A stretch of 64,000 nt of DNA from an uncultured Alphaproteobacteria bacterium (GTDB lineage: Bacteria > Pseudomonadota > Alphaproteobacteria > HIMB59 > GCA-002718135): NCBI GenBank assembly GCA_902600225.1, contig CACKIH010000005.1, positions 5,327-69,326 of the forward strand. The letters run 5' to 3'. Shown in pieces: positions 34,036 through 37,033 of the stretch. The notes beneath the pieces were generated by a model. It had not been told where the DNA came from. It did no database searches and saw only the letters and a program-made list of their open reading frames with translations. The stretch's first letter is position 1. Every line of letters begins with the position of its first letter. Position numbers and translations under genes: made by a program.

Positions 34036-34974
34036 ATGAGCCATTTATTTTATAAACCTGCTAAATCTAGATTACACAGAAGTGAATTGGCAGTTCCTGG
34101 CTCTAATCCAAAGATGTTTGAAAAAGCATTAAAATCAAATGCCGATTATATTTTCTTAGACCTAGAAGATGCAGTATCTCCAAATGATAAAATTGATGCA
34201 AGAAGAAATGTTATTAATGCAATAAAAGAGTATAATTGGAAAGAAGAAGGTAAAACAATCTCTATAAGAATTAACGGATTGGATACACACTATATGTATC
34301 GTGATTTGATTGAAATTATAGAAGAGGTAGGTGATAGGGTTGATACATTATTAATTCCAAAAGTAGGCTCATCATCTGATGTATATATGGTCGATTGTTT
34401 GCTTAATCAAATTGAGCAAAATAAAAAATTTGAAAATAGAATAGGTTTAGAATGTTTAATTGAAACAGCACTAGGAATGTCTAATATTCAATCAATTGCA
34501 ACATCAAGTTCAAGACTAGAAGCATTGCATTTTGGAGTTGCAGATTATGCAGCAAGTATGCGCGCAAGAACCGTTGTTATAGGGGGGTTAAATCCTGATT
34601 ACCCTGGAGATCAATGGCATCATGGCTTATCAACATTAGTAATGACTTGTAGATCATATGGCTTAAGAGCAATAGACGGACCTTTTGGAGACTTTAATGA
34701 CAAACAAGGATATCTTGATGCAGCAAAAAGAGCGGCAGCAATTGGTTTTGAGGGTAAATGGGCAATACATCCATCGCAAATAGATTTAGCTAATGAAGTT
34801 TTTTCTCCGCCCAAAGAGGAAATAGATAAAGCAAAAAGAATATTATTAGAATTAGAAAAAGCAGCTGCTGAAGGAAAGGGCGCTGCTCAGCTTGATGGAA
34901 GAATGATCGATGCTGCATCTGCAAAAATGGCTGAAAATATTGTAAATATTAATAAGTTAATTGAAAGTAAGTAA
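34036..34974 (+). CDS. mcl: L-malyl-CoA/beta-methylmalyl-CoA lyase (HpcH/HpaI fold)
   Basis: 312 aa. RLHRSELAVPGSNP, IFLDLEDAV, IRINGLDTHYMYRD and FEGKWAIHPSQIDLANEVF match remembered methylotroph MclA closely. Confidence 0.85.
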   Translation: MSHLFYKPAKSRLHRSELAVPGSNPKMFEKALKSNADYIFLDLEDAVSPNDKIDARRNVINAIKEYNWKEEGKTISIRINGLDTHYMYRDLIEIIEEVGDRVDTLLIPKVGSSSDVYMVDCLLNQIEQNKKFENRIGLECLIETALGMSNIQSIATSSSRLEALHFGVADYAASMRARTVVIGGLNPDYPGDQWHHGLSTLVMTCRSYGLRAIDGPFGDFNDKQGYLDAAKRAAAIGFEGKWAIHPSQIDLANEVFSPPKEEIDKAKRILLELEKAAAEGKGAAQLDGRMIDAASAKMAENIVNINKLIESK

Positions 34975-36134
34975 TGGATATACACGAATATCAAGCAAAA
35001 AAAATATTGTCTGATTTTGGTGTTAAAATTCCGACTGGGGGTATTGTTTATAGTCCAGAAAATGCAGAAAACAAAGCAAGAGAAATTGGTGGTTCAAAAT
35101 GGGTTGTAAAAGCGCAAGTTCACTCAGGTGCTAGAGGTAAAGCGGGAGGAATTATAATATGTAATTCTCCGTTAGAAGTTGCTGATGCAACTGATAAATT
35201 GTTGGGTAAGAAATTAATTACAAACCAAACTGGTCCAGAGGGGAAGATAATAAATAGAATTTATATTGAAGAAGCAACTGATATCAAACACGAATTATAT
35301 TTAGGTTTAGTGTTTGATAGATCTTCAGAAAGTATAATGGTTGTAGCCTCAACAGAAGGTGGAATGAGTGTCGAAGAAATTTCAAAAGAAAAACCTGAAA
35401 CAATTATACGATCTAAAATAGAAGTAGCAGTTGGTATTCAACAATTTCAAGCAAGAGAAATAGCTTTTGGTTTAGGAATTGAATCCAAATTGATCTCAAG
35501 AGCTGCAAATACAATTATCGGTTGTTATAAAGCTTTTAGTGAGCTTGATGCAACAATGGTTGAAGTTAACCCATTAGTTGTATCACACCAAGATGAAATA
35601 TTAGCATTAGATTGTAAAATGAGTTTTGATAATAATGCGATGTTTAGAAGAGACGAAATTGCAGAACTTAGAGATAAAACACAAGAAAATTCAAATGAAG
35701 TTTATGCTTCTGACAGAGGAATGAATTATGTAAGCTTAGATGGGAATATTGGTAATATTATTAATGGTGCAGGCTTAGCAATGGCTTCCATGGATATGAT
35801 AAAACTTGCTGGTGGTCAACCTGCAAATTTTTTAGATGTTGGCGGAGGTGCAACGCCTGAAAAAATAGTTAAAGCTTTTAAATTAATCTCTATGGACACA
35901 AAAGTTAAGGTAATATTAGTTAATATCTTTGCAGGAATTAACAGATGTGATTGGGTTGCAGAAGGAATTGTTCAAGCTTTATCAAAAATTGAAATTAAAC
36001 ATCCTTTAGTTATACGTTTAGCTGGAACTAACGTCGAAAAGGGAAATGAAATACTTAAAAAAAGTAATATAAATTACATTGAAGCATCAACTTTAGAAGA
36101 TGCAGCAAATAAAGCAGTGAAGGCTCTTGGATAA
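34974..36134 (+). CDS. mtkA: malate--CoA ligase (malate thiokinase) beta subunit
   Basis: 386 aa ATP-grasp SucC-like protein. It carries AGINRCDWVAEGIV, as I remember for MtkA, rather than the SucC-type GGIVRCD. Directly follows mcl. Confidence 0.75.
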   Translation: MDIHEYQAKKILSDFGVKIPTGGIVYSPENAENKAREIGGSKWVVKAQVHSGARGKAGGIIICNSPLEVADATDKLLGKKLITNQTGPEGKIINRIYIEEATDIKHELYLGLVFDRSSESIMVVASTEGGMSVEEISKEKPETIIRSKIEVAVGIQQFQAREIAFGLGIESKLISRAANTIIGCYKAFSELDATMVEVNPLVVSHQDEILALDCKMSFDNNAMFRRDEIAELRDKTQENSNEVYASDRGMNYVSLDGNIGNIINGAGLAMASMDMIKLAGGQPANFLDVGGGATPEKIVKAFKLISMDTKVKVILVNIFAGINRCDWVAEGIVQALSKIEIKHPLVIRLAGTNVEKGNEILKKSNINYIEASTLEDAANKAVKALG

Positions 36135-36136
36135 TC

Positions 36137-37033
36137 ATGTCTATAATCATTCACAAAAACACAAAGATTTTAGTCCAAGGATTCACAGGAAAAATTGGAA
36201 GTTTTCATGCTGAAGAAATGATTAAGTATGGTTCTAACGTTGTTGGCGGGGTAACACCTGGTAAGGGTGGTATGACTCATTTAAATCTTCCAGTTTTTAA
36301 TACTGTTAAAGAAGCTGTAGATCAAACTGGAGCATCAACATCAATTTTATTTGTCCCACCAGCCTTTGCAGCAGATTCAGCAATGGAAGCTGCTGATGCA
36401 GGTATTAAAACGTGTGTGGCTATTACTGACGGTATTCCTTCTCATGATATGGTTAAAATAAAAAGATACATGAGAAGATATCCAAAAGATAAAAAAATGG
36501 GATTAGTAGGTCCGAATTGTGCAGGAATAATTAGCCCTGGTAAATCTATGTTGGGTATTATGCCTGGTCATATTTACAAAGAAGGTAAAATAGGAATAGT
36601 TAGTAGATCTGGCACTTTGGGATATGAAGCTGCACAACAACTTAAAGATTTGGAAATTGGTGTTTCAACAAGCGTGGGTATAGGAGGCGATCCAATAAAT
36701 GGAAGTTCTTTCAGAGATATAATTGAAAAGTTTGAAAATGATGATGAAACTATTGCAGTTTTAATGATAGGTGAAATAGGTGGCCCACAAGAAGTTGAAG
36801 CTGGACAATTTGCTAAAGAAAATATGAGTAAACCGGTAATTGCATATATAGCAGGACTAACTGCACCTAAAGGTCGTGTGATGGGGCATGCTGGCGCAAT
36901 TGTTTCTGCTTATGGTGAAAGCGCAATAGAAAAAGTAGAACTTCTTAAAGAATGTGGAGTTACAATTTCCAAAAACCCTTCTGTAATGGGTGAAACTGTT
37001 AAAAAAGTATTAGTAGAAAATAATTTGAATTAA
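36137..37033 (+). CDS. mtkB: malate--CoA ligase alpha subunit
   Basis: 298 aa SucD-like. GPNCAGIISPGKSMLGIMPGHIY, SRSGTLGYE, and the catalytic His region GHAGAIV. Confidence 0.75.
   Translation: MSIIIHKNTKILVQGFTGKIGSFHAEEMIKYGSNVVGGVTPGKGGMTHLNLPVFNTVKEAVDQTGASTSILFVPPAFAADSAMEAADAGIKTCVAITDGIPSHDMVKIKRYMRRYPKDKKMGLVGPNCAGIISPGKSMLGIMPGHIYKEGKIGIVSRSGTLGYEAAQQLKDLEIGVSTSVGIGGDPINGSSFRDIIEKFENDDETIAVLMIGEIGGPQEVEAGQFAKENMSKPVIAYIAGLTAPKGRVMGHAGAIVSAYGESAIEKVELLKECGVTISKNPSVMGETVKKVLVENNLN

What the first reader, a model, noticed from the sequence alone, without database searches (positions are those of the whole stretch)
34036..37033. mcl-mtkA-mtkB: malyl-CoA lyase plus malate thiokinase (serine-cycle enzymes) in a streamlined heterotroph, a possible glyoxylate hub
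Seen: three tightly packed genes (0 and 2 nt spacing). The lyase matches remembered methylotroph MclA blocks. The ligase subunits carry MtkA/MtkB-like rather than SucC/SucD-like signatures (AGINRCDWVAEG; GPNCAGIISPGKSMLGIMPGHIY).

Established: together these enzymes interconvert malate + CoA + ATP with glyoxylate + acetyl-CoA.

Inference, by direction:
- Run towards malate, they would assimilate the glyoxylate produced by the purine pathway in this same window (and by glycolate oxidation), as an ATP-conserving alternative to malate synthase.
- Run in reverse, they would make glyoxylate, and hence glycine by transamination, from TCA-cycle malate. That is relevant to an organism type reported to be glycine/serine-limited.
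Basis: partly seen in the sequence, partly recalled or inferred. Interest (0 to 1): 0.55.

Follow-up and report, generated by a model that had tools for sequence, protein, structure and literature searches.

The report
Malyl-CoA lyase plus malate thiokinase operon
Three tightly packed genes in this small-genome ocean bacterium encode a known enzyme pair that interconverts malate with glyoxylate plus acetyl-CoA; in this lineage the pair appears to stand in for the missing malate synthase, but the enzymes themselves are ordinary and already annotated in public data.

Summary

**Identity (~0.95).**
[quoted passage not shown] All seven catalytic residues are kept.
- MtkA passes NCBIfam's malate--CoA ligase cut-off; the genus's own SucC does not.
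- In both subunit trees, ligases next to an mcl gene form one clade (SH-aLRT 100), apart from SucCD.
This assembly has no second sucCD, but that is an assembly gap: relatives carry sucCD in an mdh-sucCD-sucA operon, and here a contig starts inside the sucB-like gene.

**Role (~0.55, inferred).** Most likely glyoxylate + acetyl-CoA to malate, conserving ATP.
- In the genus, mcl is in 53 of 69 genomes, malate synthase in 11, both in one.
- Isocitrate lyase, glyoxylate carboligase and an Sga-type aminotransferase were not found.
- Against a general rule: SAR11 genomes with the cassette keep malate synthase and have no allantoicase, and elsewhere it usually sits in serine-cycle clusters.

The lineage is probably AEGEAN-169/HIMB59. 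This scan noted the cassette 37 times on other DNA. It is a new member of a known kind, of modest interest.

The parts
34036..34974 (+). [quoted passage not shown]
   Evidence: Pfam HpcH_HpaI at 134.8 bits. [quoted passage not shown] D42, E44, D45, R78, E143, D170 and D292 correspond to the MCL-R catalytic and metal-binding residues D42, E44, D45, R76, E141, D168 and D299.
34974..36134 (+). mtkA: malate--CoA ligase (malate thiokinase) beta subunit, 386 aa
   Evidence: NCBIfam NF010647 scores 622.1 bits against a cut-off of 604. As a control, the genus's own SucC scores 411.9 on the same model. The protein sits inside the clade of mcl-linked beta subunits, SH-aLRT 100. It carries the diagnostic A-G-I-N-R-C-D-W motif.
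36137..37033 (+). mtkB: malate--CoA ligase alpha subunit, 298 aa
   Evidence: It sits inside the clade of mcl-linked alpha subunits, SH-aLRT 100. It has the GHAGA phosphohistidine motif and the clade-specific GPNC-A...I-Y motif. NCBIfam has no MtkB model in what was returned, so the best hit is the SucD model.
33979..43787 (.). About 9.8 kb variable segment whose first three genes are mcl-mtkAB; it is absent at the syntenic site in same-genus genomes G020 and G006
   Evidence: Flanking synteny is conserved on both sides, up to window ~33969 and again from ~43788, and the segment between is missing. The other genes are a His-phosphatase, a creatininase-family protein, a Zn-ADH-like protein, a PTPS-family protein, a glycosyltransferase, an unknown, a RibD_C domain protein and a GTP cyclohydrolase II domain protein.
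5853..7321 (+). Context, not part of the operon: allantoicase and ureidoglycolate lyase, the glyoxylate-releasing end of the purine catabolic cluster
   Evidence: Allantoicase TIGR02961 scores 354 bits against a cut-off of 278. Ureidoglycolate lyase models score up to 137 bits, below their cut-offs. The allantoicase and mcl genes keep the same spacing of about 28 kb on one contig in many genus members.

Best explanation
The three genes are one operon. It encodes L-malyl-CoA lyase (Mcl) and the two subunits of ADP-forming malate--CoA ligase (malate thiokinase, MtkAB). Together they catalyse the reversible conversion: glyoxylate + acetyl-CoA <-> malyl-CoA, then malyl-CoA + ADP + Pi <-> malate + CoA + ATP.

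In this lineage the pair most likely runs mainly towards malate. The lineage is a streamlined marine alphaproteobacterium, probably AEGEAN-169/HIMB59 subclade II. Run that way, the pair does the job of the missing malate synthase, bringing glyoxylate into the TCA cycle while keeping the thioester energy as ATP. One source of that glyoxylate is the purine catabolic cluster about 28 kb upstream.

The cassette is a stripped-down version of the serine-cycle gene cluster. It sits on a variable genome segment and was probably acquired horizontally.

Shown: gene identity, clade membership, intact catalytic residues, the separate sucCD in the genus, and the distribution patterns. Inferred: operon status, direction of flux, ATP gain, the glyoxylate sources, the taxon name and the horizontal acquisition.
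For: **Identity**
- Family models.
- Solved relatives.
- Catalytic residues.
- Gene order mcl-mtkA-mtkB in nearly every one of 80 loci from several phyla that is long enough to show it.
- Beta and alpha trees in which all mcl-linked subunits form one clade at SH-aLRT 100, apart from E. coli, class-wide and own-genus SucCD.
- NF010647 separates MtkA (622 bits) from the genus SucC (412 bits).

**Separate SucCD**
- Genus relatives carry a second pair, 37-39% (beta) and about 50% (alpha) identical, in an operon whose mdh, sucC, sucD and sucA pass curated cut-offs. ORF sizes and order suggest flanking sdhCDAB, sucB and lpd.
- In this assembly, contig C45 begins inside the sucB-like gene and everything upstream is unassembled.

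**Direction towards malate**
- In an order-wide draw, genus g1 has mcl in 53 of 69 genomes and malate synthase in 11 of 69, with both in only one (G223).
- Genomes at least 90% complete split cleanly: four have mcl only and two have glcB only.
- glcB is absent at its syntenic site in the contiguous assemblies of G022 and G019.
- Malate synthase is present in 6 of the 7 other genera of the family, so it looks ancestral.
- Isocitrate lyase was found in 0 of 41 relatives.
- No glyoxylate carboligase reaches its cut-off in G000.
- No Sga/AGXT-type aminotransferase was found in G000, G019, G022 or G023.
- Family f1 has allantoicase in 55 of 79 genomes and a glyoxylate sink in most. Sister family f2 has allantoicase in 0 of 71, malate synthase in 0 of 71 and mcl in 5 of 71.
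Against: - The direction is not demonstrated, and the enzyme pair is reversible.
- In Pelagibacteraceae genomes that carry the cassette, malate synthase G (4 of 5) and isocitrate lyase (3 of 5) are also present. The cassette is therefore not a simple substitute there.
- Outside these lineages the cassette is normally embedded in serine-cycle-type clusters, where the pair runs in the cleavage direction. A glyoxylate aminotransferase lies directly upstream in 49 of 62 loci, with hydroxypyruvate-reductase-like and ppc-like genes downstream.
- In G029 the cassette is followed by pyruvate carboxylase and a carbonic-anhydrase-like gene, which would suit malate cleavage.
- The mcl/glcB exclusion within the genus may reflect only one or two evolutionary events among close kin.
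- 7 of 18 genus genomes that have mcl and are at least 85% complete lack allantoicase, so purines are not an obligatory source.
- No convincing glycolate oxidase was found: the glcD-like gene is below its cut-off and has no glcEF neighbours.
- G000 is only 75% complete.
Confidence: 0.58

Rival explanations
1. Same enzymes, opposite main direction. Malate from the TCA cycle is activated with ATP and cleaved to acetyl-CoA plus glyoxylate, a 'reverse glyoxylate shunt'. This would supply glyoxylate for glycine and make acetyl-CoA from C4 acids without losing CO2.
For: This is the characterised direction in the serine cycle of M. extorquens (PMC2948502). In most other organisms the cassette is flanked by a glyoxylate aminotransferase and by hydroxypyruvate-reductase-like and PEP-carboxylase-like genes. 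In G029 it is followed by pyruvate carboxylase. In SAR11 genomes it coexists with malate synthase, so it may do something malate synthase cannot. Isocitrate lyase was not found in this order's sample, so no other route from central metabolism to glyoxylate is evident.
Against: No Sga/AGXT-type aminotransferase was found in G000, G019, G022 or G023, which are 75-89% complete. The window carries serC and a serA-like gene, so glycine can probably come from serine. The near-exclusive distribution with malate synthase within the genus argues for functional equivalence with malate synthase.
Confidence: 0.27
2. The ligase is the organism's succinyl-CoA synthetase (SucCD), merely adjacent to a lyase.
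For: The alpha subunit's best NCBIfam hit is the SucD model, above its cut-off at 426.7 against 336. The beta subunit also passes the SucC model. No second sucCD is present in this assembly.
Against: Both subunits lie in the mcl-linked clade, separated at SH-aLRT 100 from all SucCD sequences. The beta subunit passes the malate--CoA ligase equivalog cut-off, while a true SucC of the genus does not. Relatives have a canonical sucCD in an mdh-sucCD-sucA operon, and here the contig breaks inside the sucB-like gene. The class-specific active-site motifs differ.
Confidence: 0.02
3. The lyase mainly handles beta-methylmalyl-CoA (propionyl-CoA + glyoxylate) or a related C5 thioester, as in the ethylmalonyl-CoA pathway or the 3-hydroxypropionate bi-cycle, and the ligase activates a different dicarboxylate.
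For: [quoted passage not shown]
Against: No mesaconyl-CoA hydratase or other pathway partner lies in the neighbourhood. The invariable pairing with MtkAB points to malyl-CoA. The rest of the genome was not searched for such partners.
Confidence: 0.05

Closest known systems
[quoted passage not shown]
   Same: The enzyme families match. Mcl hits the solved structure 5ugr at 1.9e-114 (that 5ugr is the M. extorquens enzyme is from memory, not from the tool output). MtkA passes the NCBIfam equivalog cut-off. The linkage of mcl with mtkAB is shared, and so are the catalytic residues and the phosphohistidine motif.
   Different: There is no serine-cycle context here. sga was not found, there is no hpr or ppc next to the cassette, and there are no C1 genes nearby. 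The host is a streamlined marine heterotroph. The proposed main direction is condensation towards malate, the reverse of the serine cycle.
Mcl1 plus malyl-CoA thioesterase (Mcl2) of Rhodobacter sphaeroides: 'apparent malate synthase' in the ethylmalonyl-CoA pathway
   Same: Mcl condenses glyoxylate with acetyl-CoA, and a second enzyme releases malate, replacing a true malate synthase. The window Mcl matches 4l9y at 3.2e-84.
   Different: Here the second step would be a reversible ATP-forming ligase, not a hydrolase. The window lyase keeps Asp at the Asp299 position, so it is a lyase and not an Mcl2-type thioesterase, which carries Glu there.
Malate synthase G (GlcB)
   Same: The net reaction in the proposed direction is the same. 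The two are distributed almost exclusively of each other within this genus.
   Different: The ligase step belongs to an unrelated protein family. GlcB is a single irreversible enzyme with no ATP yield. The two coexist in cassette-bearing Pelagibacteraceae.
Succinyl-CoA synthetase SucCD (E. coli, solved structures)
   Same: Same fold and the same phosphohistidine mechanism. Identity to E. coli SucC is about 46%, and both subunits hit the solved SucCD structures strongly, at 1e-120 for beta and about 1e-100 for alpha.
   Different: It forms a separate clade, has different motifs at the acyl and CoA-thiol site, and lies outside the TCA operon.

Membership tests
[quoted passage not shown] | HpcH/HpaI-CitE TIM-barrel domain over the full length | tested here: met
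   PF03328 at 134.8 bits over residues 16-246, plus the C-terminal C-C_Bond_Lyase match.
[quoted passage not shown] | Mg-binding and catalytic residues of MCL-R: Asp42, Glu44, Asp45, Arg76, Glu141, Asp168, Asp299 | tested here: met
   The window protein has D42, E44, D45, R78, E143, D170 and D292 at the aligned positions (alignment; residue list from PMC3832036; positions checked). These columns are also invariant in alignment A1.
[quoted passage not shown] | Asp, not Glu, at the Asp299 position, which separates lyases from Mcl2-type malyl-CoA thioesterases | tested here: met
   Asp292 in the context RMIDAAS. The rule comes from PMC3832036.
[quoted passage not shown] | Closer to characterised Mcl than to citrate lyase beta or other CitE-like enzymes | tested here: met
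   5ugr at 1.9e-114 and 4l9y at 3.2e-84, against CitE-like proteins at 1e-32 or weaker.
[quoted passage not shown] | Passes a curated equivalog model | tested here: inconclusive
   No bacterial Mcl equivalog appeared among the hits. The haloarchaeal Mcl, RipC and CitE models all fall below their cut-offs.
[quoted passage not shown] | Lyase activity on L-malyl-CoA | not testable with these tools
   Needs an enzyme assay.
Malate--CoA ligase beta subunit (MtkA) | Scores above the NCBIfam NF010647 equivalog cut-off, while true SucC does not | tested here: met
   622.1 bits against a cut-off of 604. The genus SucC control scores 411.9.
Malate--CoA ligase beta subunit (MtkA) | Falls in the clade of ligase beta subunits encoded next to mcl, apart from SucC | tested here: met
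   36 mcl-linked against 25 SucC-type rows form one split at SH-aLRT 100.
Malate--CoA ligase beta subunit (MtkA) | Class-specific motif F-A-G-I-N-R-C-D-W in place of the SucC motif F-G-G-I-[MIV]-[RK]-C-D | tested here: met
   A, N and W occur in 73 of 73 mcl-linked sequences and 0 of 42 SucC-type ones.
Malate--CoA ligase beta subunit (MtkA) | A separate housekeeping sucCD exists in the same organism | tested here: inconclusive
   Not present in this 75%-complete assembly. It is present in 9 of 24 genus relatives that also carry mtkA, inside an mdh-sucCD-sucA operon. Here contig C45 starts inside the sucB-like gene, so this is an assembly gap.
Malate--CoA ligase alpha subunit (MtkB) | Falls in the clade of alpha subunits encoded next to mcl and mtkA, apart from SucD | tested here: met
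   37 against 24 rows form one split at SH-aLRT 100.
Malate--CoA ligase alpha subunit (MtkB) | Phosphohistidine loop G-H-A-G-A | tested here: met
   The window has RVMGHAGAIV. The loop is conserved in all 72 mcl-linked and all 41 SucD-type sequences.
Malate--CoA ligase alpha subunit (MtkB) | A dedicated curated model | tested here: inconclusive
   Only SucD models hit (NF004230, 426.7 bits against a cut-off of 336). By that library alone the protein would be named the succinate--CoA ligase alpha subunit.
Malate--CoA ligase (holoenzyme) | Preference for L-malate over succinate | not testable with these tools
   Needs kinetics. No solved MtkAB structure was found.
Serine cycle (pathway membership) | Serine-glyoxylate aminotransferase present | tested here: not met
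   The Sga/BhcA-like aminotransferase that flanks the cassette in 49 of 62 other loci was not found in G000, G019, G022 or G023. The class-V aminotransferases examined in G000 are a cysteine-desulfurase-like protein, PhnW and SerC.
Serine cycle (pathway membership) | Hydroxypyruvate reductase, PEP carboxylase and C1-transfer genes clustered with the cassette | tested here: not met
   The window flanks encode an SRAP peptidase and a DUF4864 protein upstream, and a His-phosphatase and a creatininase-family protein downstream. The rest of the genome was not searched for ppc, hpr or gck.
Succinyl-CoA synthetase (SucCD) | Clusters with characterised SucCD and lies in the TCA operon | tested here: not met
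   It is separated from E. coli and alphaproteobacterial SucCD at SH-aLRT 100. It is not next to mdh or sucAB.

The most novel reading that the evidence does not exclude
A bare mcl-mtkAB trio, cut loose from the serine cycle, serves as an ATP-conserving 'malate synthase' in very abundant ocean oligotrophs. It would have displaced glcB in most of an AEGEAN-169 genus and been added alongside the glyoxylate shunt in some SAR11. On this reading, carbon from purine- and glycolate-derived glyoxylate enters the TCA cycle with one ATP gained per turn. That would be a variant of glyoxylate assimilation not discussed in any of the SAR11, AEGEAN-169 or purine cross-feeding papers that could be searched.
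Probability: 0.45. Interest if true: 0.6.

Novelty: new member of a known kind. Interest (0 to 1): 0.38.

Why it matters
Glyoxylate is the carbon product of purine breakdown and of glycolate oxidation, both important cross-feeding currencies in the surface ocean.

Published genome analyses of AEGEAN-169 note the lack of a classical glyoxylate shunt. Those of SAR11 purine users name glyoxylate as a product. None of the papers I could search mentions malyl-CoA lyase or malate thiokinase.

If the cassette is the glyoxylate entry point, it fills a gap in metabolic models of a very abundant group. It would also be a natural example of an energy-conserving alternative to malate synthase. The reverse of this enzyme pair is already used in synthetic 'reverse glyoxylate shunt' designs.

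The enzymes themselves are well known and are already named in public annotation, so the value lies in physiology and ecology, not in new biochemistry.

Tried and rejected
1. 'No second sucCD, so this is the SCS.' Rejected. The absence is an assembly gap: C45 starts inside the sucB-like gene, and relatives have the full operon.
2. 'glcB was replaced in place.' Rejected. glcB in G001, G006 and G011 lies at a different variable site from the cassette.
3. 'The cassette always replaces malate synthase.' Rejected. The two coexist in Pelagibacteraceae, in G223 and in G155.
4. 'The cassette is tied to purine catabolism.' This holds only at family level. Allantoicase is in 0 of 10 cassette-bearing Pelagibacteraceae, and is missing from 7 of 18 good genus genomes that have mcl.
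5. The G022 test for absence of the purine cluster was uninformative, because the contig ends too early.
6. The search for a glycolate oxidase found only a sub-cut-off glcD-like oxidase with sugar-acid and sulfonate-type neighbours.
7. A riboswitch or other RNA regulator was sought upstream; Rfam found only one tRNA in the window.
8. The promoter and terminator scans gave nothing above chance.
9. The SAG names could not be confirmed in the AEGEAN-169 paper, because no supplements are held. PMC2838054 is not held.
10. Locus L149, from the unpublished genome G071, was left out of the trees.
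Full report
**Observation.** Three same-strand ORFs occupy 34036-34974 (312 aa), 34974-36134 (386 aa) and 36137-37033 (298 aa). The second gap is 2 nt, as stated. Both quoted motifs are present. The window has about 27% G+C. It is contig C5 of a 1.25-Mb, 49-contig assembly that is 75% complete.

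**The lyase.**
- The first protein is a full-length HpcH/CitE-like protein.
[quoted passage not shown] Citrate-lyase-beta-like proteins reach only 1e-32 or weaker.
- The structural paper on MCL-R lists Asp42, Glu44, Asp45, Arg76, Glu141, Asp168 and Asp299 as metal-binding or catalytic. It notes that malyl-CoA thioesterases carry Glu in place of Asp299 (PMC3832036).
- The window protein has D42, E44, D45, R78, E143, D170 and D292 at the aligned positions. It therefore looks like an active lyase, not a thioesterase.

**The ligase.**
- The beta subunit passes NCBIfam's malate--CoA ligase equivalog: 622 bits against a cut-off of 604.
- The alpha subunit hits only SucD models, because no MtkB model appears in that library's output.
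- The only solved relatives are succinyl-CoA synthetases.

- The own assembly holds no second copy of either subunit. That looked alarming at first.
- In the first sample of the genus, 9 of 24 incomplete genomes carry both a roughly 99%-identical mtkA and a second gene only 38-39% identical.
- In G022 and G019 that second gene sits in a block whose mdh, sucC, sucD and sucA pass curated cut-offs. The ORF sizes and order suggest sdhCDAB upstream and sucB-lpd downstream.
- In G000 the 2.7-kb contig C45 begins inside the sucB-like gene, at 98-99% identity to those relatives. Everything upstream is unassembled. The missing sucCD is an assembly gap.
- As a control, the genus SucC scores 412 bits on the malate--CoA ligase model, well below the cut-off, and passes the SucC model.

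**Trees.**
- An alignment of diverse Mcl relatives was used to fetch 80 named loci.
- In nearly every locus long enough to show it, mcl is followed directly by mtkA and mtkB. This holds in Alpha- and Gammaproteobacteria, Nitrosomonas, Gemmatimonadota and Actinomycetota.
- SucCD references came from E. coli K-12, a class-wide sample of Alphaproteobacteria, the sister genus and the genus itself. Locus L149, from the unpublished genome G071, was left out.
- In both the beta and the alpha tree, all subunits encoded next to mcl form one clade with SH-aLRT 100, apart from all SucC or SucD sequences. The trees were IQ-TREE, LG+G4, with 61 rows each. The window pair lies in a subclade with Pelagibacterales-type sequences.
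The beta pattern A-G-I-N-R-C-D-W occurs in 73 of 73 against 0 of 42. The alpha pattern GPNC-A...I-Y occurs in 71-72 of 72, against GPNC-P...C-K...I-H in 41 of 41. The phosphohistidine loop GHAGA is kept in all.
- From memory, these loops line the acyl and CoA-thiol site of SCS. That was not tested here.

**Which organism.**
- The closest named records are GORG single-cell genomes titled 'uncultured Alphaproteobacteria bacterium AG-...', with Mcl 96-99% identical. 'Pelagibacteraceae' SAGs carry an Mcl 78-81% identical.
- These traits match the description of AEGEAN-169 (SAR11 subclade V/HIMB59):
  - low G+C;
  - estimated genome size of about 1.6 Mb;
  - no isocitrate lyase;
  - malate synthase present only sporadically;
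  - a sister genus that includes a closed 1.4-Mb genome.
- That paper reports genomes of 1.26-1.84 Mbp, 27-32.5% GC, almost no aceA, and aceB only in some subclade II members (PMC10308909).
- This assignment is an inference. The SAG names could not be checked.
- That paper does not mention malyl-CoA.

**Genomic setting.**
- In same-genus genomes G020 and G006, synteny with the window is conserved up to ~33969 and again from ~43788. The 9.8 kb between is missing.
- The segment begins with mcl-mtkAB. It continues with genes for a His-phosphatase, a creatininase-family protein, a Zn-ADH-like protein, a PTPS-family protein, a glycosyltransferase, an unknown, a RibD_C domain protein and a GTP cyclohydrolase II domain protein. 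These look like a separate module.
- In G029, from the sister genus, the cassette lies between nth and pyruvate carboxylase plus a carbonic-anhydrase-like gene.
- In most Pelagibacteraceae SAGs it sits at one conserved site.
- The window clade groups with Pelagibacteraceae sequences to the exclusion of G029, with support of 99. Together with the variable segment, this suggests horizontal acquisition. No rooted test was run.

**Role: evidence for the malate-forming direction.** An order-wide draw of 150 genomes was searched with three queries.

| Group | mcl | Malate synthase | Allantoicase |
|---|---|---|---|
| Genus g1 | 53 of 69 | 11 of 69 | 49 of 69 |
| Other 7 genera of family f1 (by genus) | 1 of 7 | 6 of 7 | 6 of 7 |
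| Family f1 overall | 54 of 79 | 18 of 79 | 55 of 79 |
| Sister family f2 (genus g2) | 5 of 71 | 0 of 71 | 0 of 71 |

- Within g1 only G223 has both mcl and malate synthase. Ten of the 16 mcl-less genomes have glcB.
- Genomes at least 90% complete split cleanly. G110, G113, G115 and G116 have mcl only. G118 and G123 have glcB only.
- Where glcB occurs, it lies at a different variable site. In the contiguous assemblies of G022 and G019, that site holds unrelated genes.
- Isocitrate lyase was found in none of 41 relatives.
- Glyoxylate carboligase did not reach its cut-off in G000.
- The window itself encodes allantoicase, which passes its cut-off, and a ureidoglycolate lyase.
- So a lineage that makes glyoxylate from purines has either malate synthase or the cassette. 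The sister lineage has neither the source nor, mostly, a sink.

**Role: evidence against, or for the opposite direction.**
- These counts come from close kin and may reflect very few evolutionary events.
- Five Pelagibacteraceae genomes with the cassette also have malate synthase G (4 of 5) and isocitrate lyase (3 of 5).
- None of ten such genomes has allantoicase, with positive controls working.
- Among genus genomes at least 85% complete that have mcl, 7 of 18 lack allantoicase. Purines cannot be the only reason for the cassette.
- In 49 of 62 loci from other lineages, a class-V aminotransferase close to the aspartate/serine-glyoxylate type lies directly upstream of mcl. A hydroxypyruvate/glyoxylate-reductase-like gene and PEP-carboxylase-like genes recur downstream (ppc at 787 bits against a cut-off of 815). 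Some gammaproteobacterial loci add FhcD, MTHFS and a FolD-like gene. That is the serine-cycle arrangement, in which the pair cleaves malyl-CoA (PMC2948502).
- In this genus, however, that aminotransferase was not found in four genomes that are 75-89% complete. The class-V aminotransferases examined in G000 are a cysteine-desulfurase-like protein, PhnW and SerC.
- The window carries serC, which passes its cut-off, and a serA-like dehydrogenase. This weakens the idea that the organism needs malate-derived glycine.
- From general knowledge, not computed here: the malate synthase reaction is strongly exergonic, and coupling it to ATP formation brings the sequence close to equilibrium. Either direction is therefore feasible.

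**Verdict.**
- The identification is secure, at about 0.95.
- The most likely role here is glyoxylate assimilation to malate with ATP conservation, standing in for malate synthase. I put this at 0.55-0.6.
- The cleavage direction remains a serious rival, at about 0.27.
- The cassette is already named in public annotation. It is widespread. This scan has noted it 37 times on other DNA, with follow-ups reaching similar conclusions.
- I found no paper discussing it in SAR11 or AEGEAN-169.
- It is a new member of a known kind, with modest physiological and ecological interest.

Noticed in passing
window:37242-43761: Eight genes share the 9.8-kb variable segment with mcl-mtkAB: a His-phosphatase, a creatininase-family protein (with weak ArfB/MftE-like hits), a Zn-ADH-like protein, a PTPS/QueD-like protein, a group-1 glycosyltransferase, an unknown 262-aa protein, a RibD C-terminal reductase domain protein and a GTP cyclohydrolase II domain protein. 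Together they look like a GTP-derived pterin- or flavin-like small-molecule module of unknown product.
   Followed up: partly
window:29192-32242: A 1016-aa fusion whose C-terminal part matches class-III aminotransferases (NCBIfam PRK06148 'hypothetical protein', 1021 bits, just below its cut-off). It is conserved in synteny whether or not the cassette is present. From memory it resembles kinase plus phospho-lyase pairs that act on ethanolamine or hydroxylysine.
   Followed up: no
window:15111-19827: A TrpB-like PLP enzyme, an unassigned 404-aa ORF, serC (587 bits, passes its cut-off) and a short serA-like phosphoglycerate dehydrogenase lie in a row. This suggests the lineage can make serine, unlike classical SAR11.
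   Followed up: partly
G000 contig C45 and L033/L034 (G022:C1:210000-229999, G019:C2:41000-60999): The block resembling sdhCDAB-mdh-sucCD-sucAB-lpd is unassembled in G000 up to the middle of the sucB-like gene. The genus's SucC sits on a very long branch with unusual composition, and is only 37-39% identical to MtkA and about 50% to other alphaproteobacterial SucC.
   Followed up: partly
L035:2791-10084 (G029:C14): In one member of the sister genus the order is nth, then mcl-mtkA-mtkB, then pyruvate carboxylase (1682 bits) and a carbonic-anhydrase-like gene. This genome also has an Sga-type aminotransferase elsewhere. The arrangement suits pyruvate + CO2 to malate to glyoxylate + acetyl-CoA.
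   Followed up: partly
L072-L132 (loci): Serine-cycle-type clusters occur in uncultured marine Gammaproteobacteria, Ca. Thioglobus, Gemmatimonadota, Acidimicrobiales and Nitrosomonas MAGs. The order is a glyoxylate aminotransferase, mcl, mtkA, mtkB, a hydroxypyruvate-reductase-like gene and a ppc-like gene; some also carry FolD-like, FhcD and MTHFS genes. This hints at wider C1 or glyoxylate metabolism than their names suggest.
   Followed up: partly
G223 and G155: Two genomes of the family carry both mcl and a malate synthase. G223 is in the genus, with Mcl 93% identical. G155 is in genus g67, with Mcl 81% identical and an A-type synthase. They may be intermediates in a replacement, or show that the two enzymes are not redundant.
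   Followed up: no
L173:3146-9604 (G000:C6:6146-12604): The only glcD-like FAD oxidase in G000 (341 bits, below its cut-off) has no glcE or glcF next to it. Its neighbours are a dihydroxy-acid-dehydratase-family protein, a CuyA-like sulfo-lyase and an L-sulfolactate-dehydrogenase-like protein. This may be a sulfonate or sugar-acid cluster and not glycolate oxidase.
   Followed up: partly
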